Shown: positions 1 through 61,066 of the stretch, piece by piece
Position numbering within the stretch: position 1 is the first letter of the stretch
Layout of the letters: every line of letters starts with the position of its first letter
NCBI GenBank assembly: GCA_964016885.1
Contig: OZ024764.1
Location: forward strand, 22,382,001 to 22,446,000
DNA: 64,000 bases
Reading direction: 5' to 3'
Source of the DNA: Eledone cirrhosa
Taxonomy: Eukaryota
Position numbers and translations under genes: made by a program
The notes under the pieces: model-generated
Seen by the model: the letters and a program-made list of their open reading frames with translations, nothing else
What the model was told of the DNA's origin: nothing
Databases searched by the model: none

Positions 1-2537
1 GTAACAGATTTAAAGATATTTTACTCAACGCCTACGACAGAAAAGAAGAACAGATAGAGACATTTAACGTAGAAGATAACTGGGAGTTCCTATAAAATAA
101 CTTACTAAAGGTGACGGATGAGATCTGTGGCTGGAGTAAGACCTCAAGCAGGAGGAGAGTGACTTGGTGGTGGAACAATAAGGTAGATGAAGCAGTTAAG
201 GCCAAGAGACAGGCATGGAAAGAATGGAAGAACGGGGGGAGCAGGGTACATTACATAGAGACCAAGAGGGAAGCTAGGCGACAAGTATACTTAACTAGGA
301 GGGAAGCAGAGGATAGAAAATTCAAGCATGTTTTACAACGTGGGGACCAGAAACAGGAGGTATTCAAGATTGCGAGGCAGTGTGTCAGAGATAGTTGTGA
401 TGTCATTGGAGAGAAGTGTATCCGGAATGATAAAGGTGAGCTTGCCCTCACAAGTGCTGAGAAGAAAGATGCATGGAAGAGTCATTATGATAGATTACTA
501 AATGAGGAGAATGCATGGGAAGAAGAGACCCTACCCCAAGTAGACCCTATAGAGGGACCAGCAGTACAAGTCAGCAGCAGCGTAGTAAGTAAGGCAATCA
601 AAGATATGAAGATGGGGAAGGCAACCGGTCCATCGGGTATAGCTGCCGAGATGCTGAAGGCATCTGGGTCTGTAGGTCACACTATAACCACACGTATCGT
701 TAACCAGGTAATACTAGAAGGGGCCATACCAAAAGACTGGTGCAGTAGCATCATTGTCAACTGCTACAAAGGTAAAGGCGATGCACTAGATAGAGGAAAC
801 TATAGAGGTATAAAGTTGATGGACCAGGTCATGAAAGTAACAGAAAGAGTTATAGCACAGCTGATTAGGGACCAGGTGAAAATAGACGAGATGCAATTTG
901 GGTTTGTACCAGGAAGAGGCACCACTGATGCCCTCTTCCTTGTGAGGCAATTACAGGAAAAGTACCTAGCTAAAAGTAAGCCACTCTACTTGGCATTTGT
1001 CGACCTTGAGAAAGCCTTTGACAGAGTTCCACGTGTTGTAATCTGGTGGGCTCTTAGAAAACTAGGAGTAGATGATTGGCTTGTGAAAGCGGTACAAGCC
1101 ATGTATAGGGGAGCAGTCAGCAAAGTTAGGATTAGCAATGAGTATAGCGAGGAATTTAGCGTACAGGTTGGGGTCCACCAAGGCTCTGTTCTTAGCCCTC
1201 TCCTGTTCATCATAGTCCTGCAGGCAATAACGGAGGAGTTTAAGACCGGATGCCCATGGGAACTCCTGTATGCTGATGACCTCGCACTCATAGCTGAATC
1301 TATGGTAGAACTAGAGAATAAATTCCAAACCTGGAAGCAGGGACTAGAAAGAAAGGGTCTCAAAGTCAACCTGACAAAGACTAAGGTCCTTGTAAGTAGA
1401 CGAGAAAGCAGAACCCAGATCCCCTCAGGGAAATGGCCTTGCTTAGTATGTGGGAAAGGTGTAGGTAGGAACTCCGTCCTCTACCCCAAATACAAACAAT
1501 GGGTACACAAGAGATGTAGCGGGATCTCAGGAAGCTTAATTAAGAATGTAGGATTCACATGCAGCAGCTGTGCTGAAACAGCAAGCAGCAAACAGCCACA
1601 GGAAACAAGTACCACCAATTTCTGGGAGGGCCCTGTAGAAACAGTAGACAGCTTCTGCAACCTAGGTGAGCGAATTAGCAACGGAGGTGGGTGTTCAGAA
1701 AGTACAATAACTAGGGTAAGAACGGGATGGAAGAAGTTTAGGGAACTACTACCACTGCTAGCTGCAAAAGGCTTCTCCCTCAGAATGAAAGGCAGACTGT
1801 ATGATGCGTGTATCCGAACAGCGATGTTGCATGGTAGTGAGACCTGGGCGCTGAAGGTGGAAGACTTACGTAGATTAGAGAGAAACGAAGCCTGCATGCT
1901 CCGATGGATGTGTAACAGTAATATACGTGAACGACAAAGCATAAATGAATTGAGAGAGAGACTGAGCATAAGAGGAATCAAATGCTGTGTGCAGGAGAGG
2001 CGGTTGCGCTGGTATGGACATGTGATGCGTATGAAGGATGACAGCTGCATAAAAAGGTGCAGAGCACTAGAAGTTGATGGAAACCGCGGAGTGGGGAGAC
2101 CCAAGATGACCTGGGATGAGGTGATAAAAGCCGACCTTACCCAATTACACCTCTCAAAGACAATGACACACGACCGTGACTTCTGGCGTCACGCAGTAAT
2201 ACAGAGTACCTGACCTCCCATGGGTACAAGCTGAAGCATATAGACAATATGCCCCCACACCCCCCACTATAAAGTGGTCGTGGAGGTGCCACAGCAAAAA
2301 AAGCACCCAGCCCACACTGTAAAGTGGACGTGTAGGCGCCACGAAAAAGCACCCAGCAATCACTGCAAATGAGGTTGGTGTTAGGAAGGGCATCCAGCTG
2401 TAGAAATCAAGCCAGATCAGTTCCTGTATGAGCTAGGCATGGTCAGCCGACCAGACACTGCACACAACAGGACAACCCGTCTAACCCATGCTAGCGTGGA
2501 AGAACGGACGTAAAACGGTGATGATGATGATGATGAT
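1..2537 (+). mobile_element. RTE-clade non-LTR retrotransposon (LINE), young copy; 5' part lies outside the window; 3' UTR ends in a (GAT)n tail
   Basis: RT motifs FVDLEKAFDRVPR, GVHQGSVLSP, LLYADD; RTE C-terminal RRLRWYGHVMR...GRPK; tail ggtgatgatgatgatgatgat at ~2517-2537. Sister unit (18750-18850) has only (TA)n/(CA)n at this position. Confidence 0.93.
111..2213 (+). CDS. RTE reverse transcriptase ORF (partial; in-frame TAA at 93-95 upstream) with a PHD-like Cys/His motif after the RT core
   Basis: 700-aa ORF; WPCLVCGKGVGRNSV...WVHKRCSG...FTCSSC. Confidence 0.85.
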   Translation: MTDEICGWSKTSSRRRVTWWWNNKVDEAVKAKRQAWKEWKNGGSRVHYIETKREARRQVYLTRREAEDRKFKHVLQRGDQKQEVFKIARQCVRDSCDVIGEKCIRNDKGELALTSAEKKDAWKSHYDRLLNEENAWEEETLPQVDPIEGPAVQVSSSVVSKAIKDMKMGKATGPSGIAAEMLKASGSVGHTITTRIVNQVILEGAIPKDWCSSIIVNCYKGKGDALDRGNYRGIKLMDQVMKVTERVIAQLIRDQVKIDEMQFGFVPGRGTTDALFLVRQLQEKYLAKSKPLYLAFVDLEKAFDRVPRVVIWWALRKLGVDDWLVKAVQAMYRGAVSKVRISNEYSEEFSVQVGVHQGSVLSPLLFIIVLQAITEEFKTGCPWELLYADDLALIAESMVELENKFQTWKQGLERKGLKVNLTKTKVLVSRRESRTQIPSGKWPCLVCGKGVGRNSVLYPKYKQWVHKRCSGISGSLIKNVGFTCSSCAETASSKQPQETSTTNFWEGPVETVDSFCNLGERISNGGGCSESTITRVRTGWKKFRELLPLLAAKGFSLRMKGRLYDACIRTAMLHGSETWALKVEDLRRLERNEACMLRWMCNSNIRERQSINELRERLSIRGIKCCVQERRLRWYGHVMRMKDDSCIKRCRALEVDGNRGVGRPKMTWDEVIKADLTQLHLSKTMTHDRDFWRHAVIQST

Positions 2538-6194: not shown

Positions 6195-6198
6195 TTAA

Positions 6199-6495
6199 TC
6201 TGATGTCACTCATAACTACTTTTATCAGTAAGTATAATCTAACGTCACTAATAACTACTTTTATCAGTCAGTATAATCTAATGTCACTAATAACTACTTT
6301 TATCAGTCAGTATAATCTAATGTCACTAATAATTACTTTTATCAGTCAGTATAATCTAATGTCACTAATAACTACTTTTATCAGTCAGTTTATTCTACTG
6401 TCACTAATAATTACTTTTATCAGTCAGTTTAATCTAATGTCACTAATAACTACTTTTTTCAGCGAGTATAATCTACTGCCACTAATAACTAACCT
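6199..6495. repeat. 39-bp intronic VNTR (atgtcactaataactacttttatcagtcagtttaatcta), ~7.5 copies
   Basis: Tandem repeat, visible as MSLITTFISQYNL periodicity. Confidence 0.95.
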
Positions 6496-6619
6496 ATGTT
6501 AGTCAGCACATTCTTCACCAAAGAAGGCCTTAGTATTTATTACAGTCCATTTATCAATATAGAAATATTCTATGAAATTTGTACTGATGTATTACAAGTT
6601 TCTGTGTATCTTATAATGT

Positions 6620-8212: not shown

Positions 8213-9010
<798 letters not shown>

Positions 9011-11136: not shown

Positions 11137-11540
11137 TTTGTTACTAAATACTAGATATTAGAGGGTCATGTTGTTCTAGATGTGCTGGAAGAGCCATTCC
11201 ATCTTGTGAGGTTCACACCAGCAGCTAGCCACCTCAGCACCTATGGTGGTATATTTATTATATTATTTATTCTTTACCATTAACATTAATATAAAAGATA
11301 ATTATATATTTTTAGAGAAGAACCTCTAATTTTATATAGCTTAGGGCTTCAGTAGGTAAAAGTCTGGCCCTGCTTGTCTTGTATTTTTTAGGGGAGAAGT
11401 TAGGGAATACTGTTATTGTGTGAAAGTTTTCTAAATCTTCAGCCACTAACATGGAGAAGATATTTCAGTAAGAAGGTTCACGTCCTGACATCTATAGCTG
11501 TTAACAATGAGATTGGAATTCATTATTAAACAAATGTTAT

Positions 11541-15099: not shown

Positions 15100-15550
15100 T
15101 AAAAGTACCCACAATTCAGCAAAAAGCAAATAATTGAGCTTTGGGTCTGGGTCAAGGGGGCAGAAGTGCTGTGCCCTGTGGATAAGACTACAAATGTATC
15201 CCCCCCCCCTGGACGATGGACAGTTACACCCACTGCAACAGCCACCCCAACCTCATGGGACTCCCTCTTCAGAAGGGCCACCAACGTTCTGATCTTACAG
15301 AGGAGCTTGGCAGTACGGGGTCCAAGTACTTCTGAGGTCTCGATGGTGACCGGTGTGAAGAGACCTACAATTGATGTCATCCCAGTTATGTTGGACTGTA
15401 ATATACTGGGGTATAGAGAGGCCTTAACCTGTCTCAGCCGGGCCACCCAGGGTTGTGTCATCTAGGTACCAGACAGGGGTGACTAGACCATGTTGTCAAC
15501 TGTCAACACCAATAGGAGTGAGGCGAGTGGGTCTCCTTGCTAGACACCAT
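15100..15550 (-). mobile_element. Internally deleted CRE-clade retrotransposon relic
   Basis: Minus strand GV*QGDPLASLL, VWYLDDTTLGGP, FTPVTIETSEVLGP. Copy at ~46600-47010. Confidence 0.7.
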
Positions 15551-15795
15551 ATATAAAAACGTATTTGCTAATTACTTTAGTGAATAATTTGTTTCATACG
15601 TAATTATTACTTTTAACACAATAGGATTTTGTACACGTGTTTGTTTGAAAACATCTTTCAAAGAAGTATGAGACAGTCTTTTGTAGTGTTTATTATAATA
15701 AATTACTGTATGTTGAGCTGTTTTAACTTCTCCACCTTCCATTATTTTATATTGTTTTTGTTAAAAAACGATATCTTTTTCATATATATATATAT

Positions 15796-16010
15796 GAAGG
15801 CGTGTGGCTGAGTGGTTAGAGAATTGGATTCGGAATTGTGAGGTTGTGAGTTCGATTTTCAGACCGGGCGGTGCGTTATGTCCTTGAACAAGACATTTTA
15901 TTTCACGTTGCTCCTTCTACCTGGAGTTGCAACCGATAGATAGTATTAGCAATTGGAAAGACCAATGGAAACATTGTTTCCTCGGTCCGATTTGACGAAA
16001 AGTTGATCAT
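15796..16010 (+). mobile_element. tRNA-derived SINE
   Basis: A-box tggctgagtgg, B-box gagttcgatt, then gtccttgaacaagacattttatttcacgttgctcc; adjacent to (TA)n. Copy at 47255-47468. Confidence 0.78.
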
Positions 16011-16334
16011 AAAAAATATTTAGAGAGAAAGAGAGAGAAACACACAAACATACACTACTGTATTACATATGTAAGGGGAGATAACTCTCGTTACATCCCT
16101 CCTTCTTTTTGATATACGTACTTTAAATACTTTGTTCAATGGAATCTGCTTTATTTTGTCCTAAGTAGATTTCTGTTTAAGTATTTACGAGATTCACAAT
16201 GATTCACGTAACCAAGTTACTTACATAGAGATATATTTCACATAGAATCACAACAAATGAAAATATTAAGTCAACACTCTGTCAATCAGTCTCACATCAC
16301 ATGGGGTGCTGGAGTCTCCCTCTAATACTTTCTG

Positions 16335-16500
16335 AGACAGTCTTACCTCGAGTGATAGCAAGGCTAAGATGTTGGAACTACCAAACACCCTCATATGTAT
16401 CACCAGACACCTCGGTAAGGAGAGCTGCCAACGATAACAAGAACCTCGTTGTCAGGGACCTATCTCCTCCAAACTTCTCCAACACCACAGACTAGAATAT
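16335..16500 (-). mobile_element. CRE-clade 3' relic (endonuclease C-terminus)
   Basis: Minus strand VLEKFGGDRSLTTRFLLSLAALLTEVSGDTYEGVW*FQHLSLAITRG aligns to the CRE at 53650-53800. Copies at ~32065-32230 and ~47810-47975. Confidence 0.75.
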
Positions 16501-16585
16501 TCTACTCTTTATTCCCTATCAAATATATTTCAGTCTAGTCATTTGTCTTGTATCTTGTATATGTATTTTCAAAACTAACTGTCAC

Positions 16586-16905
16586 ATTTGTGAGACCCCC
16601 AGTTAGTGATGTTTTCGTCTCCCTCCCACATCCTACATGCTGTAGTAAAAGTGAGGGTCACTGCTTCTGTAGACGAACGAAATAAAAGTTAAACTACCAG
16701 TAATTATCGGCAAAGTATTTATTCCAGTCTGTGATGTTTGAGAAGCTGGGCTGCTGACAACGAAGTTGTTGTCACTGTTGGCGGCTGGCTTTACCGAAGT
16801 ACCCGATGCCTCTTGTGAGGGTACTTAGCTGTTTGGGTGGTTTAGCCTCCATATGACCCGATCTTACCGAGATACCCGGTAATCTCTGTCAGAGTACTTA
16901 GCTGT
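16586..16905 (+). mobile_element. CRE-clade 3' relic with a ~73-bp tandem repeat
   Basis: Collinear with 53508-53790 (gttagtga..tcccacatcct..gctgac..ggcggct..gaggg). Repeat expanded at 32520-32776, 48262-48452 and 48807-48954. Confidence 0.75.
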
Positions 16906-17004
16906 TCTATTTTAATTACATTTACTGTTTTCACCTTTATTGTTTTTTAATTACAAACTTTACATAATTTAATTCGGTAAAAATATTTTTACGTCCCAAA
17001 AAAA

Positions 17005-17133
17005 CTTGACCTTTGACATTGAAGCATGCGCAGTGGTGCAGTTGTCGACTTCCTGTCCACGTGTTAGTCTTCCTACAACATTATTTAAAAAACATTTCTG
17101 TAAATACTAAACACCTGAGACTATAATGTAAGT
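17005..17133 (+). promoter_or_regulatory. Putative promoter and non-coding exon 1 of ZNF copy 2
   Basis: TGACCTTTGAC (17007), GCATGCGCA NRF1-type (17024), ACTTCCTG ETS-type (17048), CACGTG (17058), donor aat|GTAAGT at 17128. Confidence 0.6.
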
Positions 17134-17599
17134 ATTATGTCTATTAATATTGTAGATTTAAGCTCACTTTTCACATCACAAATATATATTTTCTTGTTTG
17201 TTTCATTACTGGAAATATAAAATGTTATCGTAATTATCTATATTTTACCTACCTCTAATTAATTAAAGTGAAAACTTTTGTTGTTGCTGAAAAATAAATT
17301 AACAAAACTAAATATTTAAATATTCTAAAGGTCGTTTTTATATTATGTGATGATATAATTAATATATTTTATTACAATTGTATAAATTTACAGTAGAATA
17401 ACGTTGTAAATATGTTTTAAATATATACATAAATAACATAAGTGTGTAAATAACATTATACATTGCTGGCAATTCCTTGAGAAAGACATTACAAATATAT
17501 TGTCTAAACTGTGTATAATAATATAATTTATTGAACGATAATGATAAAGGAAAGAAAAACACAGTGGGAGATGTCAATTCACCACCAAGTGTGATAATA

Positions 17600-17883
17600 G
17601 GTCACACCTCACCCCTTAGGGGGTTAACTACACACTTTGAGGCAAGCCAACACACTGGCAGCATTACTAAGGTGTTGAAATAACCAGGTACCCTCACGGG
17701 TATCACCTGGTACTTCGGTAAGGCGAGGCTAAGGTGTTGAAATAACCAGGTACCCTCACGGGTATCACCTGACACCTCGGTAAGGTGAGTCTAAGGGGCT
17801 GAAATAACCAGGTACCCTCACGGGTATCACCTGACACCTCAGTAAGGTGAGGCTAAGGTACTGAAATAACCAGGTACCCTCAG
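17600..17883 (-). repeat. 62-bp minisatellite derived from a CRE 3' relic
   Basis: taaccagg recurs every 62 bp; minus strand encodes GDTREGTWLFQHLSL and ..NAASVLACLK. Also at 34135-34384 and 54215-54359. Confidence 0.82.
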
Positions 17884-20503: not shown

Positions 20504-20719
20504 TTAACCCTTTAGTATATAAACTGGCCATATCTGGCCAGAATTGTCTCATGTCTTTCTATTCAAACTGGCCGTAACTGGTCACTTATACTTATGTTAA
20601 GGTATTGTTCTCAAAATAAGTAACATCAAAATCTCATAGATTTGATATTATGAGTGATAAAGCATTTACTGTGAAAATATAATAGTAAATATAGAGTAAT
20701 GTGAATACTAAAGGGTTAA

Positions 20720-21250
20720 TCTGATGTCACTAATAACTACTTTTATCAGTCAGTATAATCTAATGTCACTAATAACTACTTTTATCTGTCAGTTTAATCT
20801 AATGTCACTAATAACTACTTTTATCAGTCAGTATAATCTAATGTCACTAATAACTACTTTTATCAGTCAGTTTAATCTAATGTCACTAATAACTACTTTT
20901 ATCAGTCAGTTTAATCTAATGTCACTAATAACTACTTTTATCAGTCAGTTTAATCTAATGCCACTAATAACTACTTTTATCAGTCAGTTTAATCTAATGT
21001 CACTAATAACTACTTTTATCAGTCAGTTTAATCTACTGCCACTAATAACTACTTTTATCAGTCAGTTTAATCTAATGTCACTAATAACTACTTTTATCAG
21101 TCAGTTTAATCTAATGTCACTAATAACTACTTTTATCAGTCAGTTTAATCTAATGTCACTAATAACTACTTTTATCAGTCAGTTTAATCTACTGCCACTA
21201 ATAACTACTTTTATCAGTCTGTTTAATCTACTTCCACTAATAACTAACCT
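20720..21250. repeat. 39-bp VNTR, ~13.5 copies
   Basis: Tandem repeat. Confidence 0.95.
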
Positions 21251-21583
21251 ATGTTAGTCAGCACATTCTTCACCAAAGAAGGCCTTAGTATTTATTACAG
21301 TCCATTTATCAATATAGAAATATTATATGAAATTTGTACTGATGTATTACAAGTTTCTCAGTATCTTATAATGTTCTTTTATTATTTCAGAATACCAGAG
21401 GACATTGGCATTAAAGAGCACGTTACATCAGACATATCCTCAACATTAACCATTTCTAATGAAAGACACTACCCATCATTTTCAAATAATTTTGAAAACA
21501 CACAATACTTTGAAGTGATTTAGTAATATAACTAAATTTCTCAGTATTAAGCTGTGAATTATGTGAGAAACTGAGGTGATTGA

Positions 21584-22714
<1,131 letters not shown>

Positions 22715-31668: not shown

Positions 31669-32776
31669 AGATATATATATATATAGTTAAATATTAGACA
31701 GGAACAAAAAACAGAGGCAGTGCAAATGGTAGTTTATACCGAGAGAGAGACAGACAAACACATCTAAACCTCTACTAATGTAAAACATAAAACATATGTA
31801 AGGGGAGACAACTCTCATTACATCCCCCTCTTCTTTTTGACATACATTCTTTAGATACTTTGTACAATGGAATCTACTTTATTTTGTGTCCTAAGTAGAT
31901 TTCTGTTTAAGTATTTACGAGATTCACAATGATTCACGTAACCAAGTTACTTACATAGAGATATATTTCACATAGAATCACAACAAATGAAAATATTAAG
32001 TCAACACTCTGTCAATCAGTCTCGCATCACATGGGGTGCCGGAGTCTCCCTCTAATACTTTCTGAGACAGTCTTACCTCGAGTGATAGCAAGGCTAAGAT
32101 GTTGGAACTACCAAACACCCTCATATGTATCACCTGACACCTCGGTAAGGAGAGCTGCCAACGATAACAAGAACCTCGTTGTCAGGGACCTATCTCCTCC
32201 AAACTTCTCCAACACCACAGACTAGAATATTCTACTCTTTATTCCCTATCAAATATATTTCAGTCTAGTCATTTATCTTGTATCTTGTATATGTATTTTC
32301 AAAACTAACTGTCACATTTGTGAGACCCCAGTTAGTGATGTTTTCGTCTCCATCCTACATCCTACATGCTGTAGTAAAAGTGAGGGTCACTGCTTCTGTA
32401 GACGAACGAAATAAAAGTTAAACTACCAGTAATTATCGGCAAAGTATTTATTCCAGTCTGTGATGGTTGAGAAGCTGGGCTGCTGACAACGAAGTTGTGG
32501 TCACTGTTGGCGGCTGGCTTTACCGAAGTACCCGATGACTCTTGTGAGGGTACTTAGCTGTTCTGGCGGTTTAGCCTCCATGACATGATTTTACTGAGAT
32601 ACCCGGTGATCTCTGTCAGGGTACTTAGCTGTTCTGGCGGTTTAGCCTCCATATGACCCGATCTTACCGAGATACCCGGTGATCTCTGTCAGGGTACTTA
32701 GCTGTTCTGGCAACTTAGCCCCCATATGACCCGATTTACCGAAGTACCCGGTGATCTCTGTAAGAGTACTTAGCTG

Positions 32777-33420
32777 GGCATAGGTTAAGTTTTACGTCCT
32801 CGAAAATGAAACTAGGTTTTCTGACAAGTGAATGTGTTTTTTTTTTTTTCCAATGAAATTTACGATACACTCTTTGTTTATTTACAACAGGTCTCTATAG
32901 TGATATGGTGTTAATTAGTATTGCGTGTGTGATTATTTTCTCTTATATATATATGTGTGGGTGTGTATATGTGTGTATATATATGTGTGTCTGTATGTAT
33001 ATATATATATGTGTTTGTATATATATATGTGTTTGTGTCATCATCATCGTTTACATGTTTTTACCCAAATCCCTTATCATTCTCTGTCCTTATGACCCGG
33101 CCTTAATTTGTTTATAGTTGGTGCCAACTTTGGCAAGATATTACAAAAACATCTAAACGATGATGATGACACAAACACATATATATATACAAACACACAC
33201 ATATATATATATACATACAGACACACATATACACAGCCACACATATATATATAAGAAATAATAATCACACACGCAATACTAATTAACACCATATCACTAT
33301 AGAGACCTGTTGTAAATAAACAAAGAGTGTATCGTAAATTTCATTGGAAAAAAAAACAAACACATTCACTTGTCAGAAAACCTAGTTTCATTTTCGAGGA
33401 CGTAAAACTTAACCTATGCC
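32777..33420. mobile_element. 644-bp foldback MITE with ~285-bp inverted arms
   Basis: ggcataggttaagttttacgtcc...ggacgtaaaacttaacctatgcc flanked by direct repeat cttagctg (32769-32776, 33421-33428); empty sites at ~16897 and ~48444. Confidence 0.93.
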
Positions 33421-33525
33421 CTTAGCTGTTCTATTTTAATTACATTTACTGATTTCAACTTTCATTTTTTTATTACAAACTTTACATAATTTAATTCCGT
33501 AAAAATATTTTACGTCACAAAAAAA

Positions 33526-33654
33526 CTTGACCTTTGACATTGAAGCATGCGCAGTGGTGCAGTTGTCGACTTCCTGTCCACGTGTCAGTCTTCCTACAAC
33601 ATCATTTAGAAAACATTTCTGTAAATACTAAACACCTGAGACTATAATGTAAGT
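33526..33654 (+). promoter_or_regulatory. Putative promoter and exon 1 of ZNF copy 3
   Basis: Same motif cluster as 17005-17133; GTAAGT at 33649. Confidence 0.6.
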
Positions 33655-35625
33655 ATTATGTCTATTAATATTGTAGATTTAAGCTCACTTTTCACATCAC
33701 AAATATATATTTTCTTGTTTGTTTCATTACTGGAAATATAAAATGTTATCGTAATTATCTATATTTTACCTACCTCTAATTAATTAAAGTGAAAACTTTT
33801 GTTGTTGCTGAAAAATAAATTAACAAAACTAAATATTTAAATATTCTAAAGGTCGTTTTTATATTATGTGATGATATAATTAATATATTTTATTACAATT
33901 GTATAAATTTACAGTAGAATAACGTTGTAAATATGTCTTAAATATATACATAAATAACATAAGTGTGTAAATAACATTATAAATTGTGGGCAATTCCTTG
34001 AGAAAGACATTACAAATATATTGTCTAAACTGTGTATAATAATATAATTTATTGAACAATAATGATAAAGGTAAGAAAAACATAGTGGGAGATGGCAATT
34101 CACCACCAGGTGTGATAATAGGCCACACCTCACACCTTGAGGAAAGCCAACACACTGGCAGCATTACTAAGGTGTTGAAATAACCAGGTACCCTCACGGG
34201 TATCACCTGGTACCTCGGTAAGGTGAGGCTAAGGTGCTGAAATAACCAGGTACCCTCACGGGTATCACCTAACACCTCGGTAAGGTGAGGCTAAGGGGCT
34301 GAAATAACCAGGTACCCTCACGGGTATCACCTGACACCTTGGTAAGGTGAGTCTAAGGGGCTGAAATAACCAGGTACCCTCACGGAAACGACTAGATTTG
34401 TAGAAAAAGTAGGGTGAAAGTATACGAAGAGATATAGTTTCACAGATCTACTCACACCTCAAGTTGGGTGGGAAATAATTATTTTTCTTAGATTTTTTTC
34501 TAGACCCCTTTTCAATATTTTCTCAGGACCCCTTAGATACTTGCAGGAGACGTTTTATTCCTCAGTATTAGGGTTAGGGTTTCCGTTTTCAGGAAGAAAA
34601 GTCGATTGCAAACATCTAAGAGGTCGAGAAATAAAAATAAGGAAAGATAATTATTTCCCAGCCAACTGGAGAAGTGTGTAGCTCTTCTAAACTCCGATAA
34701 TCCTGTCTCCCACTTCTTTATCTACAAATCTAGTCGTTTCCTGCTACTTTGAAGGCCCTATTTATTGATAACACCACTTGTAAATCTTTGTCAACTTTTC
34801 ATACGTAAATTGTGAATCAGTTATTTTTAAACAAACTATCAAAGAAGTGATCTCACAGTAACTGTGTTTGATTTAATCAACTTATTCCCCCCAAACATTG
34901 TCGACCTTGTGTCTAAATCTGAAACTATTATTAGATCTTAAATCAACCCCGTAAAGATGAAGGGCAAAGCTAACCTCGGCGGGATTTCAACCCTTTATGT
35001 TATGAGTTCAAATCCCACCAAAGTTAGCTCTGTCTTTCATTCTAACGGAGTGGATAAATTAAAGTTCCAGTAATCTACTGGGGTCCGAGATATTAACGTT
35101 TGAGTAGATTCTATCTTTTTGTGTGTTTGTATTTATAATGTTACTAGAACACCTGTGACCTGTTGGGTCACGTTCCCTTTAAAAATAATTTTTAAATAAT
35201 TAAAATATACAGACATGTCTATAACTTAAAATGAAATTAGTAGTTAGGCCCATGTATATATATATATATATGCGTGTGTGTATGTATATGTGTGTATGTG
35301 TGTGTGTATATATATGTCACAGACACACACACACAACTCGTTATACTTTTAAAATTTCGTTCAACAACACCACCAGCTCTCTCTCTATTTATGAAGGTAC
35401 CAGAAAAAACTCATATCTCGGGAACCTGTGCTCTGATTTACATGAAACTTGTTTTATCCCATTTGTATTCCCATTTCAGGGTCAACTTCCTTTCAAACTA
35501 TTTTCCCATTATGCCCCGTTTTGGCTGTATTACATTACAGACAAGACACAATCACAGAATTTTAGGTTTATAATGTTATAGTATCATGATAGGGTAATAC
35601 AGTTATTTAGAGACCTGTGGTAAAT

Positions 35626-46445: not shown

Positions 46446-48551
46446 ATGTAGGTTACCAACACTAGGGAGGGCAGCATGTCCTTCAGTGTGTTCTGCTACA
46501 TTAACTACCAGGAGGTCACCACATGAGACAAAGAATACATTTCAAAGAAGGGTCATAAAAGAACTAAATACGAAAGTACCCACAGCAAAAAGGAAATAAT
46601 TGAGCTTTGGGTCTAGGTCAAGGGGCAGAAGTGCTGTGCCCTGTTAATAAGACTGAAAAAGTATTCGCCCCGGACTATGGACAGTTACACCCACTGCAAC
46701 AGCCACCCCAACCTCATGGGGCTCCCTCTTCAGAAGAGCCACCAACGTTCTGATCTTACAGAGGAGCTTGGTAGTACGGGGTCCAAGTACTTTTGAGGTC
46801 TCGATGGTGACCGGTGTGAAGAGACCTACAATTGATGTCATCCCAGTTATGTTGGACTGCAATATACTGGGGTATAGAGAGGCCTTAACATGTCACAGCC
46901 GAGCCACCCAGGGTTGTGTCATCTAGGTACCAGACAGGGGTAACTAGACCATGTTGTCAACTGTCAGCACCAATAGGAGTGAGGCGAGTGGTCCCCTTGC
47001 TAGACACCATATATAAAACGTATTTGCTAATTACTTTAATGAATAATTTGTTTCATACGTAATTATTACTTTTAACACGATAGGATTTTGTACACGTGTT
47101 TGTTTGAAAACATCTTTCAAAGAAGTATGAGCCAGTCTTTTGTAGTGATTATTATAATAAATTACCGTATGTTGAGCTGTTTTAACTTCTCCACCTTCTA
47201 TTAATTCATATTGTTTTTGTAAAAAAACGATATCTTCTTCATATATATACATATGAATGCCTGTGGCTGAGTGGTTAGAGAATTGGATTCGGAATTGTGA
47301 GGTTGTGAGTTCGATTCTCAGACTAGGCGATGCGTTATGTCCTTGAGCAAGACATTTTGTTTCACGTTGCTCCTTCTACCTGGAGTTGCGACCGATAGAT
47401 AGTATTAGCAATTGGAAAGACCAATGGAAACATTGTTTCCTCGGTCAGATTTGACTAAAAGTCGATCATTAAAAAAATATATATTTATATATATATAGAG
47501 AGAGATAGAGAAACACACAAGCGTACACTACTGTAAAACATATGTAAGGGTAGACAACTCTCGTTACATCCCCCTCTTCTTTTTATATACGTCCTTTAAA
47601 TACTTTGTTCAATGGAACCTGCTTTATTTTGTGTCCTAAGTAGATTTCTGTTTAAGTATTTACGAGATTCACAATGATTCACGTAACCAAGTTACTTACA
47701 TAGAGATATATTTCACATAGAATCACAACAAATGAAAATATTAAGTCAACACTCTGTCAATCAGTCTCACATCACATGGGGTGCCGGAGTCTCCTTCTAA
47801 TACTTTCTGAGACAGTCTTACCTCGAGTGATAGCAAGGCTAAGATGTTGGAACTACCAAACACCCTCATATGTATCATCTGACACCTCGGTAAGGAGAGC
47901 TGCCAACGATAACAAGAACCTCGTTGTCAGGGACCTATCTCCTCCAAACTTCTCCAACACCACAGACTAGAATATTCTACTCTTTATTCCCTATCAAATA
48001 TATTTCAGTCTAGTCATTTATCTTGTATGTTGTATATATATTTTCAAAACTAACTGTCACATTTGTGAGACCCCAGTTAGTGATGTTTTCATCTCCCTCC
48101 CACATCCTACATGCTGTAGTAAAAGTGAGGGTCACTGCTTCCGTAGACGAACGAAATAAAAGTTAAACTACCAGTAATTATCGGCAAAGTATTTATTCCA
48201 GTCTGTGATGTTTGAGAAGCTGGGCTGCTGACAACGAAGTTGTTGTCACTGTTGGCGGCTGGCTTTACCGAAGTACCCGATGACTCTTGTGAGGGTACTT
48301 AGCTGTTCTGGCAACTTAGCCCCCATATGACCCGATCTTACCGAGATACCCGGCGATCTCTGTCAGGGTACTTAGCTGTTCTAGCAACTTAGCCCCCATA
48401 TGACCCGATCTTACCGAAGTACCCGGTGATCTCTGTAAGAGTACTTAGCTGTTCTATTTTAATTACATTTACTGTTTTCAACTTTATTTTTTTTTATTAC
48501 AAACTTTACATAATTTAATTCGGTAAAAATATTTTTCACGTCACAAAAAAA

Positions 48552-48680
48552 CTTGACCTTTGACATTGAAGCATGCGCAGTGGTGGAGCTGTCGACTTCC
48601 TGTCCACGTGTTAGTCTTCCTACAACATAATTTAGAAAACATTTCTGCAAATACTAAACACCTGAGACTATAATGTAAGT
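48552..48680 (+). promoter_or_regulatory. Putative promoter/exon 1 (4a)
   Basis: Motif cluster; GTAAGT at 48675. Confidence 0.55.
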
Positions 48681-49320
48681 ATTACGTCTATTAATATTGT
48701 AGATTTAAGCTCACTTTTCACATCACAAATATATATTTTCTTGTTTGTTTCATTACTGGAAATATAAAATGTTATCGTAATTATCTATATTTTACCTATA
48801 GCTTTTACTTAGCTGTTCTGGCAACTTAGCCTCCATATGACCCGATCTTACCGAGATACCCGGTGATCTCTGCCAGGGTACTTAGCTGTTCTGGCAACTT
48901 AGCCTCCATATGACCCGATCTTACCGAGATACCCGGTGATCTCTGCCAGGGTACTCGATTGATCCAGCACCCTACTATATCTACCAACAGGTTATATCGA
49001 GGTATCAAGTGATAATCTTTTCTAGTCAAGACCTCCTCTGCTGTCCTCTGTCTTCCAACTGCCCTGTTATTCTACAGACTCACGAAAGTGGACACCACCT
49101 GAAGGAGAGAGTGGTTGGTGTAGTGGTCATCGCTGGCTATTGTCCGAGTGACACAGGTAAAATAGACTACCTAGACTGAGGTGAAATGTCTACCGTCCAT
49201 TCCTCACCACCAACATCTTACTTTCTCTATTTTAATTACATTTACTGTTTTCAACTTCATTTTTTTATTACAAACTTTACATAATTTAATTCCGTAAAAA
49301 TATTTTACGTCACAAAAAAA

Positions 49321-49437
49321 CATTGAAGCATGCGCAGTGGTGCAGTTGTCGACTTCCTGTCCACGTGTCAGTCTTCCTACAACAACATTTAGACAACATT
49401 TCTGTAAATACTAAACACCTGAGACTATAATGTAAGT
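49321..49437 (+). promoter_or_regulatory. Duplicated putative promoter/exon 1 (4b), lacking TGACCTTTGAC
   Basis: Motif cluster; GTAAGT at 49432. Confidence 0.55.
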
Positions 49438-49892
49438 ATTATGTCTATTAATATTCTAGATTTAAGCTCACTTTTCACATCACAAATATATATTTTCTTG
49501 TTTGTTTCATTACTGGAAATATAAAATGTTATCGTAATTATCTATATTTTACCTACCTCTAATTAATTAAAGTGAAAACTTTTGTTGTTGCTGAAAAATA
49601 AATTAACAAAACTAAATATTTAAATATTCTAAAGGTCGTTTTTATATTATGTGATGATATAATTAATATATTTTATTACAATTGTATAAATTTACAGTAG
49701 AATAACGTTGTAAATATGTTTTAAATATATACATAAATAACATAAGTGTGTAAATAACATTATAAATTGCTGGCAATTCCTTGAGAAAGACATTACAAAT
49801 ATATTGTCTAAACTGTGTATAATAATATAATTTATTGAACAATAATGATAAAGGAAAGAAAAACACAGTGGGAGATGGCAATTGACCACCAA

Positions 49893-52800
49893 ACGAGGTA
49901 AACATTTTCAACTTTCCCCTTTTTTTGCTTTGTCCGAGACAACTCAAAATATTCTTCAAGGAACTGGATTTTCCATTCGGTTGGATCGAACGGATTTTAC
50001 CATTTATAATCTACGGAGAGGAATAACAGATGTTCGGAGGAAAAAAGAATTGTTTGTGGCAACAACGTAGGGAACCAACCTGGAGCAATTGTATCACACA
50101 ATTATACTTTCCTCCTTAACATATACACTTACAATTTTTCAAAATCAAACCCCCCAAATATAAAATATAAATAATTATAAATGGCGAGGAACCATCCCAT
50201 CTCCCTCTTGAAATAACCTGAATCTATTTATAGTCAGGTGTGACTGAAAGGTCAATCCATACTTCCATTCTATTTCACAGAATTAGAAGCTTTGACCACT
50301 TGATAGAATTCAGGTCCAGTAATGTAATCACTCCGTAATTGTAAACATCTTGTATCACTATCATTCAGGTTTTGATTTTACTTAAGTCTTGCCCATGTTT
50401 TTTTTTTTTTCTTTTTTACACCAACTCACAATTTCGGTTTTTACTGCGGATTTACCCATGCGAACTATTACACAAACTCACAGCCTTAGATTTTGTATTT
50501 CTAGCGTTTTTATTTTCCTTCTCTTTGCATGTTCAGTGCTCTTTCTCTCCCACTGTATTTATCTGCCTCTCACATGACCACACTCCTCTCCACGCACTCA
50601 TCATCTTCTCACTCCTTCTCCACCTTCCATCCCTCCCCTTGCTCAACCCTTACTTCCTCCTCGCGCACAGCCCACCTAGGTATTCGTTCAACCCGCCGGT
50701 GGCCCGATGTTTCGACCGAACTATCACCGGCGATTGCCGATTGCTAAAGTTGCCACCACTTTAACCTAGTCCACTCTAGGTGGCGGTGGCATGCGTCGAA
50801 CGACCAAGAGACCTGCTTGGTGTAACGACTAATGTGACAACCGGTCAGCCTCCGACCTCTCATTCTACACCAACTGCAGCACGCACGAGAGGAGCTAACT
50901 TGACCCCACCTACCCCTCCTCTCCTTCAAGGCAGATTCCGAACGAATCCATCCCGGCCAACCACACCACCCCTACAACTGTTAGCTCACTACCCAACCCC
51001 CGCTTTAGTCCCACCGTTAGAACCACTGTTGTCTCCTTTACTGACTCCCTTCAGCGAATTCCAACGCTGGCCCTCTACTGCCGGCTGTTGCCAGCCCGCC
51101 ACCTGATTGCGCCCTCTGTGCCCGCACTAACCAGTACTTAAAGACAATTAAAAGTCACCTATGCCACGCAAGCTACCACAGAAGCTGTGTCAGCATCACC
51201 AAAGCTCAAGCCGAAAGGCTTCAACACTGGACCTGTCATCGGTGCCACTTCAGCTCCGACTATTCCGTGGGGATGACCAACACTCTAACGACGACTTTCC
51301 ACAGCCCCCCAGGGCTTCTCCAAATCAAAGCTCGTTAACCGGACCCTTAAGGGAGCTCGGAACAGCTTTGCAGGTGCCCTCTCTAATTTACTGAAAAACG
51401 TTTGCTCGTCCAACAATAGACTGGCAGAAATTGTTTATGTTTCCCCTCATCTCTCTTCACGTGCACAATGCGAACTCGGGTTCCCTCAAGTCCTCTCTCA
51501 AGCGGCAGTTCCAGCTTTTTGAGTCCACCCCAACCACGTCTCATCTCAGTTCGTCTCCGAGCTCGGTGTCCACCAACAGACAACCGGTAGACCTCAAGCG
51601 AGCCGTCAATGCCAAATTCAGCGAATTTGACATTAAAGGGGCTGTCCTCCCTTGCTCCATGCAACTCTGACTCTCGTGAGCGTCTGAAAGAGAAGCACCC
51701 CCAGATGATCAGCAACACTGGCCCGAACCACCAGAATACTTGAGACCAGTTTACACCACCAATATCATCAGAAAGGCGATTTCATCCTTCCCCGCTGGGT
51801 CAGGCGCAGGAATTGACGTCCTTCGTCCTCAACACCTCAAGGATGGTATCTCCTTATCGGCCGGTGATGCCGGACTCGAGCTCTTGGAGAGTCTGACTCA
51901 GTTTGTGAATCAGTGAATGTTCTCCCGTTCATCCGCCCACTGTTCTTCGGTGCGAAGCTATTTGGTCTCACCAAGCCCAACGGGGACCTGCGCCGCATTG
52001 CGGTTGGCTGCACACCTCGCCGCCTCACTGCAAAAGCGTGATTGCTGTTGGTCTCCAACCCACTGGCGGAGGAATTATCCCCCATCCAGCTGTGGGTGGG
52101 TACCAGGTTGGGATGTGTGGCTGCCGTCCACGCTGCCAGAGCATTTGCCAACTTGCCCTCCTCATCCCCCAAGGTCATCCTCAAACTTGACCCCAGGAAT
52201 GCCTTCAACTCCGTCAGCCGTAACATCGTCCTCGGCTCAGTAAGAGAGAGGGTCCCACAACTCTACCACTTTGCTTGGCAGGCTTATCGGGAGCCCTCCT
52301 ACCTCTCTTTCAGTAACCAGATCATCACCTCTGCCTCAGGAGTCCAACAGGGTGACCCACTCTGGGACACCCCCCCCCCCCGCACTGGACATTGATGACG
52401 TCACCATGATGGGGGCTGAGTTGGACCTCAATGTCTGGTAGCTCGACGACGCCTGTTTCGGGGGAACTCCGGATATGGTTCTCGCCACTGCCAACAGGAT
52501 GGTGGAGGAGCTTGGCGCCGGGGTCTCCAGATCAATAGCTCCAAATGTGAGCTCTGGATCCTCAACCACCCGGCTTCTTAACACCAACAGCTGATCGACC
52601 TGTTCGCAGAGTCCTTCCCTTTCATCACGGTCCCTCCCCCGTCGGCTTGGTGCTCCTTAGGAGCCCCAATTACAGACCTGGCCTTCGGGTCAACCATCCA
52701 ATCGAAGATGGTTGGCCTTGAGCAGCTGCTGAGGAATATTGAAGATATCGAACGCCATCAAGGTTTCTTCTTACTCAGGAACTACCTGTCTATTCCTAAG

Positions 52801-54170
52801 CTTCTGTATCTGCTCAGGGTCAGCCCCTCTCACAGATTTCCATCCTGCCTCCAACGCTTCGACGACCTAATCTTCGAGAGACTCGAGTGTCTGGTCAATG
52901 TTAGTAAGTGTTCGTCCCTCTCTCTCCCCTGCTTCCTTTCCTCCACCCAAGCTTGCAGCATCCTCTCCTCTCCAACATGGACTAGTTCCAACAGGGAGTT
53001 GTGTGAAGCTCTCCAGCAATGGAGTGAGTTGGGCTTGTCTCTTCCTGAGAAGGTGGAGGACAGTCGAAGTCAGAGAACTTGGGACAGGATACGTTGGAAT
53101 GCCACCTTCGACTCCCTCTTCGTCCTCTCAGATCAGTTTACAAGGTGCCGCTTACCAACTGCCAGCGCCAAATACTCCGGTGACTGGGTCGATGCCTTAC
53201 CCGTGGCCAACGTTGGAGGCCTACTCAGCCTGGATGAAGTTCGTGTCTCCATCACCCTCAGAGTGGGAGCTGACGTCTGCATGGGTTTGAGATGTGGCTA
53301 ACTCCTCGACTCCACAGGCCCCCACGGTCTTTCTTGCCGCCTGAATGCCGGCCTCTTCGCCCGTCACACGGAGCTAAACTTTATTCTGAAGAGAGCTTTG
53401 GCCCGGGCAAACATCCCCTCAGTCTTGGAACCATCTTGGTTGTCCAGAAGTGACGGCAAAAGACCTGACGGCCTTACCCTGTGCCCCTGGTCGAGAGGCA
53501 GGTGCTTAATCTGGGACGTCACTGTTAGTGACTCCTTTGCTCTTTCCCACATCCTTGATGCTGCGGTAAGGACGAGAGCCACAGCTTCGGCAGACAAGCG
53601 GAGTAAGACCCTCAAATACTCTGATCTGTCGGCCAGCTACATTTTTCAGCCTGTGGCTTTCGAGACGTTTGGGGGAGTCGGGCCGCTGACTGCGAGGTTC
53701 CTTTCCTCACTGGCGGCTCGCCTTATAGAGGTAACTGGCGAAATCGCGAGGGCGCTTGGCTGTTCCAGCACCTCAACCTCGCCATCACCCGAGGTAACAC
53801 TGCCAGTGTGCTGGCTTGCCTCAAAACTCATTAGAGAGGTTTCCCAGTACCCCTCGTTGCTGTCTTTTGCTCTGGTGTTGGCTCCGTTGTCCACCCCTTC
53901 CTTTACATTTTCTTTAATATTGCAACATTGAAGGAATATATCTTTCATTGTATCATCCTTTATAGTGTTACCGAGGCATTTGTAATGTTATTTATATATT
54001 TAAAACATATTTGTTATGTTATGCTACTGTAAATTTATTTATATGCTCTGTTTATATTTTCATTCTGAAGGAACTTATCCACTTGTGTTGATATAAGTGA
54101 TGCTATGACTTTCCTCTAAGCATTGTGTCATTATATATGTTATTATAAACGTGAATAAATTGAATTTATA
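49893..54170 (+). mobile_element. CRE-clade non-LTR retrotransposon (RT plus restriction-like endonuclease), frameshifted, copy-specific
   Basis: FPAGSGAGID.LRPQHLKD, LRRIAVG.T.RRL.AK, KLDPRNAFNSVSR, GVQQGDPL, W*LDD, RHTELN, KRPDG..WDVTVSD..KY..FQPVAFETFG; empty site caccaa|gtgtgataat at ~17589 and ~34109. Confidence 0.88.
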
Positions 54171-54728
54171 GTGTGATAATAGGCCACACCTCACACCCTA
54201 GGGGTTAACTACACACTTTGAGGCAAGCCAACACACTGGCAGCATTACAACGGGTGATGGTGAGGCTAAAATTCTGAAATAACCAGGTACCCTCACGGGT
54301 ATCACCTGACACCTCAGTAAGGTGAGGCTACGGTGCTGAAATAACCAGGTACCCTCACGGAAATGACTAGATTTGTAGAAAAAGTAGGGTGAAATTATTC
54401 AGAGAGATGTAGTTTCACAGATCTACTCACACCTCACGTTGGGTGAGAATAATTATTTTTCTTAGAATTCTTGCTATACCCCTTTTCCAGTATTTTTTCT
54501 CTGGACCTCTTAGATACTTGCGATAGACGTTTTATTTCCCAGTATTAGGATTAGGGTTTCCGTTTTCAGAAAGAAAAGTCGATTGCAAACATCTAAGAGG
54601 TCGAGAAATAAAATTAAGGAAAGATAATTATTTCCCAGCCAACTGGAGAAGTGTGTAACTCTTCTAAACTCCGATAATCCTATCTCCCACTTCTTTATCT
54701 ACAAATCTAGTCATTTCCTGCTACTTTG

Positions 54729-59198: not shown

Positions 59199-59635
59199 CT
59201 GTATCAATATCAAACTCATTACATCATACTACAACAACAACAATTGTGTAGATCCATCATCCTTGCTAAAACTGGGGTTAACCTTGTAGGTTTTACCTAT
59301 GACAGGGATCATAAACACCAGGTTTCCATTTTTGAAGCAGTGTCTCAAGATTTTGTGTAAATTGAAGTTTTTCACATTAAACTTTCATTTATTATACTTT
59401 AACAGGTAAGATATATATTTGTATTTTTAGTAAAGGTTGGTAACTTCTGTAATTTAAACCTGCCAATAAAATGAAAACGTTTGTTGTTGCTAGTCTGACA
59501 TTGATATTAATTCTATTGTCCTGTACATTGTCTCAAATATCAAAAAATCTCATCGATTTGATATTATGTGAGATAAAGCATTTACTGTGAAAATATAATA
59601 GTAAATATAGAGTAATGTGAATACTAAAGGGTTAA

Positions 59636-60127
59636 TCTAATGTCACTAATAACTACTTTTATCAGTCAGTTTAATCTAATGTCACTAATAACTACTTTTA
59701 TCTGTCAGTATAATCTAATGTCACTAATAACTACTTTTATCAGTCAGTTTAATCTAATGTCACTAATAACTACTTTTATCAGTCAGCATAATCTAATGTC
59801 ACTAATAACTACTTTTATCAGTCAGTATAATCTAATGTCACTAATAACTACTTTTATCAGTCAGTATAATCTAATCTCACTAATAACTACTTTTATCTGT
59901 CAGTTTAATATAATGTCACTAATAACTACTTTTATCAGTCAGTATAATCTAATCTCACTAATAACTACTTTTATTAGTCAGTTTAATATAATGTCACTAA
60001 TAACTACTTTTATCAGTCAGTTTAATCTAATCTCACTAATAACTACTTTTATCAGTCAGTTTAATCTAATGTCACTAATAACTACTTTTATCAGTCAGTT
60101 TAATCTAATGTCACTAATAACTAACCT
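59636..60127. repeat. 39-bp VNTR, ~12.5 copies
   Basis: Tandem repeat. Confidence 0.95.
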
Positions 60128-61066
60128 ATGTTAGTCAGCACATTCTTCACCTAAGAAGGCCTTAGTATTTATTACAGTCCATTTATCAATATAGAAATAT
60201 TATATGAAATTTGTACTGATGTATTACAAGTTTCTAAGTATCTTATAATGTTCTTTTATTATTTCAGAATACCAGAGGACATTGGCATTAAAGAGCACGT
60301 TACATCAGACATATCCTCAACATTAACCATTTCTAATGAAAGACACTACCCATCATTTTCAAATAATTTTGAAAACACTCAACACTTTGAAGGGATTTAG
60401 TAATATAACTAAATTTCTCAGTATTAAGCTGCTATTTGGAACATAACTTTGCACAATCTCATGAAGTTACAATGGAAAGTTTTTAGATAAATATAAAGAC
60501 TGGTATGAAAAGGATAAAACACTTTTATATCAGTTGTTTCATCAACACTATTATTTAAAGACTAAAGGAAGCTGTTATACAGAACAGATACAACCTTGTT
60601 TATATAAATCTATGGGAGAAATACTGTGAAATATTTCTTGTAAACTCAATAACCCTTCTATTCTTTGCTGTCTGGAATATGTAGAAGATACAAAATAAAG
60701 CTGAAGAAATTTACACATGATTTTGTAAGATCTTCATATATTGACAAAGTTGATAGTTGATGGAACTACAGGAGTAGAAATATTTCCATTTTTACAGGAA
60801 TAACTAATCAAATGAAAACTAGAAAAATTAGATTCTTCACTGTCTGGAATATCTACAAGATGATTTTATATGTATATTAAACTTGAAGACATCAACAAAA
60901 CAGTTTGTATCATCTTTAAATATAAAGAAAGACCAAGTTGATGGAAATATATCTGGAGGAATATGTTTTAGGAATAATATTATAAACATAAAGAAGAAAA
61001 ATATCCATATATTGCGAGGAGAAAAATATTAAAACTGTGAATTATGTGAGAAACTGGGGTGATTGA

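What the first reader, a model, noticed from the sequence alone, without database searches (positions are those of the whole stretch)
15100..17883. CRE-clade retrotransposon 3' ends cluster around the putative ZNF promoter
Seen: within ~2.8 kb around the putative promoter/exon 1 there are four separate, mutually diverged relics of the same CRE endonuclease C-terminus (consensus about ETFG..GP.T..FL..LAA.L.EV.GD.REG.WLFQHL.LAITRGN.ASVL). They lie at 15100-15550(-), 16335-16500(-), 16586-16905(+) and 17600-17883(-). A fifth, much more complete CRE (49893-54170) sits in the same zone of another copy. I saw no CRE sequence elsewhere in the unit. Known: CRE-clade elements with restriction-like endonucleases are often site-specific (CRE/SLACS in spliced-leader arrays, Cnl1 at telomeres). 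Inference: this family may target ZNF promoter regions or its own old copies, or the relics may be retained as regulatory DNA.
Basis: partly seen in the sequence, partly recalled or inferred. Interest (0 to 1): 0.75.

Follow-up and report, generated by a model that had tools for sequence, protein, structure and literature searches.

The report
Octopus retrotransposons crowd near gene starts
Four old fragments and one larger dead copy of a jumping gene landed separately beside one octopus zinc-finger gene start, and samples from the same genome show this jumping-gene group about five times denser upstream of ordinary genes too, likely because it prefers open promoter regions rather than zinc-finger genes.

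Summary
The cluster is real, but it is not ZNF-specific. All four relics are 3' ends of CRE-like restriction-endonuclease retrotransposons. They belong to four lineages (one clade rejected, AU p=0.0002), so local duplication is excluded. The 4.3-kb element is one dead insertion amplified with the ZNF unit (27 of 30 best copies share its junction).

The family is dispersed, with no shared target sequence. Sampled density of elements:
- random DNA: 4 in 400 kb
- 8 kb upstream of DnaJ/Ras first coding exons: 17 in 320 kb (14/40 vs 3/40 windows, p=0.005)
- gene bodies: 1 in 213 kb
- upstream of other ZNF exons: 7 in 200 kb

Other repeats did not show this upstream-only excess. The family-A protein carries a PHD finger where one relative has a C2H2-type finger, but it lacks the H3K4me3-cage tryptophan.

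Best reading: a non-site-specific CRE-like group that likely prefers promoter-proximal chromatin. True start sites were not available (no RNA run), samples are small, and the 3'-end control could not be fetched. The scan's earlier notes show nothing similar.

The parts
11177..11251 (-).
   Evidence: 62 bits with the off-window family-B profile; 90% over 74 bp to dispersed copies
15100..15550 (-). R1: family-C relic, internally deleted (RT QGDPL/WYLDD motifs next to the endonuclease tail)
   Evidence: groups with L038 and L058 at 96/95 support
16170..16500 (-). R2: family-A relic (coding 16338-16500 plus 3' UTR)
   Evidence: 101 bits; its UTR type also at L032
16598..16905 (+). R3: family-A relic; its end is tandemly amplified as a 73-bp unit in paralogs
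   Evidence: 124 bits; TRF
17001..17127 (+). Putative core promoter and non-coding exon 1: GCATGCGCA at 17024, ACTTCCTG at 17048 (read as NRF1- and ETS-type from recall), splice donor GT at 17128
   Evidence: conserved in 4 of 4 window copies; inferred, no RNA
17380..17883 (-). R4: family-A relic in putative intron 1, with a 62-bp x 3.5 tandem repeat (17667-17882) and its 3' UTR
   Evidence: 79% over 314 bp to L048
17588..17589 (.). Empty site at which the 4.3-kb element sits in other units, inside the R4 3' UTR, antisense to R4, with no target-site duplication
   Evidence: blastn of both flanks; sequence
21602..22714 (+). C2H2 zinc-finger coding exon of this unit
   Evidence: Pfam zf-H2C2_2 357 bits; ATG position
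32068..34352 (.). Paralogous R2, R3, promoter and R4 of the next unit (R1 absent there)
47813..49892 (.). Paralogous R2 and R3, with a locally duplicated promoter/exon 1 (motif at 48571 and 49328)
49893..54170 (+). CRE5: near-full-length, dead family-A element (PHD 51102-51245, RT from about 51910, CCHC plus endonuclease about 53290-53830, no poly-A); one insertion copied with the unit
   Evidence: 57 of 150 best peptide hits lie in C25:19.1-23.8 Mb
54171..54370 (-). Remainder of R4 downstream of CRE5

Best explanation
The four relics and the 4.3-kb element are five separate insertions of a dispersed group of CRE-like retrotransposons that was about five times denser upstream of sampled gene starts than in random DNA, likely because the element prefers open, promoter-proximal chromatin when it inserts. 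Shown: separate origins; no shared target sequence; a 5'-side excess at unrelated genes; a PHD finger at the N-terminus of the family-A protein; and copying of one insertion across a 4.7-Mb tandem ZNF array. Inferred: the endonuclease nicks AT-rich accessible DNA with little sequence preference, and reverse transcription is often primed inside the 3' UTR by microhomology (3' ends vary). Most copies are 5'-truncated, so only endonuclease tails remain. Strongly active promoters become hot spots, where new copies also land in old ones. In a tandem array, an insertion into any unit can then spread to many units. Speculative: the PHD finger provides the bias by binding nucleosomes or DNA. It would not be a classic H3K4me3 reader, because the cage tryptophan is missing.
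For: The first 2 kb after the domain start holds 0 in 80 kb, and kinase or internal DnaJ exon loci 1 in 133 kb (p=0.0013). Reversed sequence gave 0 hits in 800 kb. RTE, CR1 and two SINEs were 0.55-1.7x upstream, and one repeat at 2.4x was equally high in gene bodies. Among 20 motif-chosen loci, the two clear gene starts carry family-A relics 0.5-2.2 kb upstream: a DUF1751 gene and a weak RPC5 match. Six relics lie upstream of a WD40 gene (L032). Five of 6 CRE insertions in the unit lie within 2 kb of the putative start (p about 0.01, post hoc). PHD: Pfam 31.2 bits against a cut-off of 24, all eight zinc ligands invariant, and present in 4 of the 11 best longer relatives.
Against: No true start sites were available; first coding exons are a proxy. 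The fall-off with distance is weak (12 of 17 within 4 kb, p=0.07). The random baseline rests on 4 elements. The 3'-end control and a third random set were not obtained. Of 20 young family-A copies, only 1 had a host gene found by Pfam among 150 of 177 flank ORFs, against 2 of 40 random windows (150 of 351 ORFs). One more (L045, CD225, below cut-off) was found by eye. Promoter motifs were not clearly enriched in those flanks. Thirty ETS+YY1 motif loci (mostly on the largest chromosomes) had no family-A hit, but many were not promoters. Family B is also enriched, and I did not check whether it has a PHD. With the family-C profile added, one relic appears just downstream of a first exon and one more in random DNA. 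The PHD lacks the cage Trp in 12 of 12 genome copies shown. Gene classes, profiles and thresholds were chosen during the analysis.
Confidence: 0.55

Rival explanations
1. Insertion is unbiased, and old relics simply survive near gene starts because sequence there is less often deleted or diluted by newer repeats.
For: The relics are old (68-81% to nearest relatives). Random windows look more repeat-filled than gene windows (per-window values). Few young copies had a detectable neighbouring gene.
Against: RTE, CR1 and SINE families are not upstream-enriched, and gene-body loci hold 1 CRE in 213 kb. Young, 499-507-bit copies also occur upstream (L240, L255). In Drosophila, germline LINE and LTR insertions are depleted at promoters (PMC10018349, abstract).
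Confidence: 0.2
2. The element homes to its own old copies, especially their AT-rich 3' UTRs, so clusters nucleate wherever a first copy lands.
For: CRE5 sits in the R4 UTR. Ten of 20 dispersed copies have another relic within the 10-kb window (14 in 161 kb; p=2e-5; four of these fed the profiles or their query). Three of 20 abut CRE sequence directly (L034, L035, L037), while CRE is about 0.14% of random DNA.
Against: Position and orientation within the old copy differ. Seventeen of 20 junctions are in unrelated DNA. L034 and L037 may be single complex events, since both parts are young. Family-B copies have 1 further relic in 29 loci of +-1.5 kb. It does not explain the 5'-side excess.
Confidence: 0.13
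3. The relics are kept because they serve as regulatory DNA for the ZNF genes.
For: R2 is 98.8-99.4% identical between paralogs, against 88-97% for most neighbouring segments. The R2-R3-promoter block is whole in 40 of 40 scored copies.
Against: Only two comparisons of 163 bp. A non-CRE AT-rich intron piece is 99-100% identical as well, so patchy gene conversion would do the same. R1, R3 and R4 are 94-96%, like dead transposons beside them. R1 is absent from one unit.
Confidence: 0.06
4. The family specifically targets ZNF promoters.
For: Four relics plus one insertion at one promoter exceed even the general upstream density (p=7e-4 for three or more). Family-C relics occur in 5 of 20 ZNF-upstream windows.
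Against: ZNF-upstream density is not above that of other genes (p=0.41). Three of those five family-C windows share flanks, i.e. one ancestral insertion. 93 of 150 best hits are dispersed over most chromosomes.
Confidence: 0.04
5. The cluster is chance, or arose by local inverted duplication.
For: R2 and R3 lie head to head and group weakly (91/81) in the tree.
Against: One clade is rejected (p-AU 0.0002). R2 and R3 have branches of 0.2-0.27, against 0.004-0.03 between paralogs, and a dispersed copy falls between them. Chance p is about 4e-6.
Confidence: 0.02

Closest known systems
CRE-clade non-LTR retrotransposons (CRE1/2, SLACS, CZAR, Cnl1, MoTeR, FoTeR)
   Same: One ORF with an N-terminal finger, RT, CCHC knuckle and C-terminal restriction-like endonuclease (motif layout from PMC12857005, passages read). 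CRE types are reported in cephalopod genomes (PMC10294476, one passage read).
   Different: The named elements are site-specific or telomere-associated, and FoTeRs have N-terminal C2H2 fingers (PMC12857005 passages). The clade is called mostly target-specific (PMC4640811 passages). Here copies are dispersed (16,864 first-look candidates), have no shared target and no poly-A, and carry a PHD finger.
HERO clade and weakly specific Utopia families
   Same: Endonuclease elements of the same broad type that have lost or weakened sequence specificity (PMC4640811 passages).
   Different: No gene-start bias is mentioned in the passages read.
Tf1/Tf2 of fission yeast; P element of Drosophila
   Same: Works like these: insertion concentrated at RNA polymerase II promoters without a fixed sequence (PMC5371812 passages; PMC10018349 abstract).
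   Different: Those are an LTR element and a DNA transposon. The bias here is moderate (about 5x), spread over kilobases, and inferred from fixed copies.
Chromatin-reader domains in retrotransposons (chromodomain, MBD, PHD of CR1-like elements)
   Same: Captured reader domains proposed to steer integration; PHD fingers are called widespread in retrotransposons (PMC6673714 passages).
   Different: No insertion bias tied to a PHD was found in my searches. Here the PHD sits at the N-terminus of a single-ORF endonuclease element and lacks the methyl-lysine cage Trp.

Membership tests
RLE-type non-LTR retrotransposon | RT domain followed by CCHC knuckle and PD-(D/E)xK endonuclease in one ORF | tested here: met
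   RVT_1 36 bits; CRCG..H..C..RH..E..KRPD..D seen in L040/L035; collinear with the 971-aa relative P0121
CRE clade | Endonuclease motif spacing as published for SLACS/CRE | tested here: inconclusive
   Same residues and order, but spacing differs by one at several places and RHT replaces RHD/N (vs PMC12857005 passage)
CRE clade | Placement with named CRE elements on an RT tree | not tested
   No named CRE protein among the 240 listed homologs; the label CRE-like rests on the motif and on recall
CRE clade | Sequence-specific target (usual in the clade, not universal) | tested here: not met
   20 of 20 dispersed copies have unrelated flanks; no tRNA gene in them
CRE clade | Fixed 3' end with poly-A tail and target-site duplication (feature recalled) | tested here: not met
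   3' ends fall at many UTR positions with no long A tail; candidate duplications of 6-13 bp in 9 of 20, several likely chance; at least two short ends are later insertions (L031, L044)
PHD finger | Cys4-His-Cys3 zinc ligands and PHD fold | tested here: met
   PF00628 31.2 bits > 24; 8 ligands invariant in 7 rows; model pLDDT 84-91 over residues 81-120; best Foldseek rows are PHD chains, rmsd 0.9 A over 42 columns, E 4e-3, none at E<=1e-3
H3K4me3-reading PHD (BPTF/ING type) | Cage tryptophan two residues before the zinc-binding His (role recalled) | tested here: not met
   Ser aligns to Trp of EBS and CXXC1; no Trp in 12 of 12 genome copies shown; Trp in 1 of 7 relatives
Promoter-targeting mobile elements (Tf1-like behaviour) | De novo insertions peak at RNA-defined start sites | not testable with these tools
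   Only fixed copies and first coding exons were available; no RNA run listed
Promoter-targeting mobile elements (Tf1-like behaviour) | Excess of copies 5' of genes over random DNA and gene bodies | tested here: met
   17 in 320 kb vs 4 in 400 kb vs 1 in 213 kb

The most novel reading that the evidence does not exclude
An animal lineage of CRE-like retrotransposons swapped sequence-specific targeting for chromatin-guided targeting: a PHD finger replaced the DNA-reading zinc finger and steers insertion to active polymerase II promoters. That would make it a non-LTR counterpart of Tf1 that has seeded thousands of octopus promoters, with tandem ZNF arrays multiplying each hit.
Probability: 0.2. 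Interest if true: 0.8.

Novelty: new variant of a known kind. Interest (0 to 1): 0.5.

Why it matters
Endonuclease elements of this type are known for homing to fixed repeats. A dispersed one biased to gene starts would show how site specificity is lost and what replaces it. Extrapolating the samples (about 1 copy per 100 kb overall, about 5 per 100 kb upstream of genes), a sizeable share of octopus promoters carry such relics, which bears on regulatory turnover in cephalopods. The window also shows how one dead insertion spreads to at least 57 places in a ZNF array, a usable marker of array history.

Tried and rejected
1. RNA evidence for the promoter: no RNA holder listed, which says nothing either way.
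2. NRF1-type palindrome as a promoter proxy: 1329 hits vs 15 control, but 9 of 15 fetched loci were one repeat family. Dropped; it had 0 CRE hits in 45 kb.
3. ETS+YY1 pattern: 58 hits vs 17 control. The first 30 loci were mostly not gene starts and held 0 family-A hits and 3 family-B hits of >=20 bits in 91 kb, so they are uninformative.
4. tRNA-gene targeting: 0 genes in 20 flanks and in the window.
5. 3'-UTR profiles found no element beyond those already counted.
6. Orientation bias upstream of genes: none (7 sense, 10 antisense).
7. Rows dropped: two antisense shadow hits (L257-, L268+) were removed from 19 to give 17; one in the ETS set was removed from 5 to give 4.
8. The 3'-end control and a third random set were not obtained, so 5' versus 3' gene flank remains untested.
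9. Earlier-findings look-ups gave nothing relevant.
10. Literature: ten searches listed no paper on promoter bias of CRE elements or on PHD-bearing CRE elements. Repbase entries and subscription papers were not searchable, so the architecture may already be catalogued there.

Full report
Setting. The window is G000:C25:22.38-22.45 Mb in a 3.0-Gb genome. The best named homolog of the element is an Octopus vulgaris protein at 73%, so I infer an octopod; the species was not determined. The window is a tandem array of C2H2 zinc-finger gene units, 92-96% alike. ZNF exons start at 8231, 21602, 39577, 58167 and 61085. A putative promoter and non-coding first exon lie at about 17001-17127 and are conserved in four window copies. 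No RNA run was listed, so the start site is inferred.

Observation. R2, R3 and R4 match the endonuclease tail of the full element far above shuffles, and a profile trained on off-window copies finds them. R1 fails that test but matches another lineage, here family C, and keeps RT-like motifs. In a tree of 33 rows the relics and CRE5 need five label changes, and holding R2, R3 and R4 together is rejected (p-AU 0.0002). They are separate old insertions that predate the 3-5% divergence of the units.

The fifth element. It interrupts the 3' UTR of R4, antisense, with no duplication, and it has stops and frameshifts. A peptide search returned 16,864 first-look candidates. Of the 150 scored, 57 lie in C25:19.1-23.8 Mb and 93 elsewhere. 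Twenty-seven of the 30 best copies share the same 3' junction; three lack the end. So it is one insertion copied with the unit. The R2-R3-promoter block was likewise found only on C25 in 40 of 40 scored candidates, out of 1530.

No sequence target. Twenty dispersed young copies have unrelated, mostly AT-rich flanks, variable 3' ends, no poly-A and at most short duplications, some overlapping the element's end. No tRNA genes are nearby.

Where the copies lie. I scanned samples with two off-window profiles at >=20 bits; reversed sequence gave 0 hits in 800 kb. Forty random 10-kb windows, of 60 drawn, held 4 elements. The 8 kb upstream of 40 first coding exons held 17 elements in 14 windows. These were 18 DnaJ and 22 Ras-family starts, chosen before looking. 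Tests: Fisher p=0.005, binomial p=0.0007, stratified p=0.015. The next 2 kb held 0 in 80 kb, and kinase plus internal DnaJ exon loci 1 in 133 kb. Twenty windows upstream of ZNF exons on other chromosomes held 7, not different from other genes (p=0.41). RTE, CR1 and two SINE families showed no upstream-only excess. Individual hot spots exist away from ZNF genes: six relics upstream of a WD40 gene, two before a DUF1751 gene, and one before a probable RPC5 gene. A family-C profile added 8 hits: 5 ZNF-upstream, 1 gene-upstream, 1 just downstream and 1 random, the last being a training sequence. Four of the five ZNF hits, in three windows, share flanks and count as one event.

Limits. The baseline is four elements. 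First coding exons are a proxy for starts, and the decay with distance is weak (p=0.07). The reverse test was weak: Pfam found a host gene beside 1 of 20 young copies and in 2 of 40 random windows, with only 150 of 177 and 150 of 351 ORFs scanned. The 3'-end control was not obtained. The bias is therefore moderate, and most copies are probably not at promoters.

Protein. Family A encodes PHD, RT, CCHC and endonuclease domains. The PHD passes Pfam's cut-off, and its model matches PHD chains. Four of the 11 best longer relatives also have it. Another relative, P0130, shows a C2H2-like finger at the same place (read by eye). The cage Trp is absent in all 12 genome copies shown, and present in 1 of 7 relatives. 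The domain is rich in Lys and Arg, so classic H3K4me3 reading is unlikely; nucleosome or DNA binding is untested.

Mechanism and rivals. I commit to an insertion bias for promoter-proximal open chromatin with little sequence preference (0.55), amplified here by array duplication. Survival bias (0.2), homing to old copies (0.13), regulatory retention (0.06), ZNF-specific targeting (0.04) and chance or duplication (0.02) follow. Nested insertions (CRE5 in R4; L035; perhaps L034 and L037) are expected at hot spots but keep self-homing open.

Literature seen. I read passages of PMC4640811 (CRE mostly target-specific; HERO non-specific), PMC12857005 (endonuclease motif, FoTeR layout), PMC10294476 (CRE types almost only in cephalopods among molluscs), PMC6673714 (reader domains in retrotransposons) and PMC5371812 (Tf1). 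Passages of PMC12988792, PMC12513265 and PMC9977147 held nothing on this point. For PMC10018349 I saw the abstract and outline only. No supplements were read. The names NRF1, ETS, YY1 and the role of the PHD cage Trp are recalled. Ten searches listed no report of a CRE-like element biased to polymerase II gene starts; Repbase could not be searched.

Verdict. The feature is real. It is a new variant of a known kind; interest 0.5.

Noticed in passing
window 17667-17882, 48265-48955, 32519-32776; L046:1074-2080; L178:2891-4250; L248: The same endonuclease-tail segment has become a minisatellite several times independently (62, 73, about 79 and about 104 bp units) in three families; in R4 the unit begins and ends at an internal microhomology.
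   Followed up: partly
L031-L050: Young family-A copies end at many different points of the 3' UTR without poly-A; some ends overlap the target duplication (L036), suggesting microhomology priming inside the UTR.
   Followed up: partly
P0127, P0134, P0135, P0138, P0143, P0148, P0156: Close relatives of this retrotransposon protein carry a ubiquitin C-terminal hydrolase domain (PF00443).
   Followed up: no
L190, L192, L198: ZNF genes on C18, C9 and C24 share one family-C relic with common flanks, a marker of a dispersed ZNF lineage.
   Followed up: partly
window 48430-49890: The putative promoter and exon 1 are locally duplicated in the unit that carries the full element; the second copy lacks 12 bp upstream of the motif.
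   Followed up: no
G000:C20:26.8-27.2 Mb (L304): Ten identical-scoring copies of a PHD-bearing element, mostly about 40 kb apart: another insertion amplified within a tandem array.
   Followed up: no
window 16171-16500: R2 and its UTR are 98.8-99.4% identical between units, while most neighbours are 88-97%: constraint or gene conversion.
   Followed up: partly
L093-L104: An abundant repeat family carries a perfect TGCGCATGCGCA palindrome and likely accounts for much of the 1329 genomic matches.
   Followed up: no
window 2232-2534: A repeat that is 2-3 times denser in and around genes than in random DNA.
   Followed up: no
window 20712-21257, 59628-60134, 6195-6514: An AT-rich 39-bp-type intronic minisatellite of variable length in each ZNF unit, open in one frame.
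   Followed up: no
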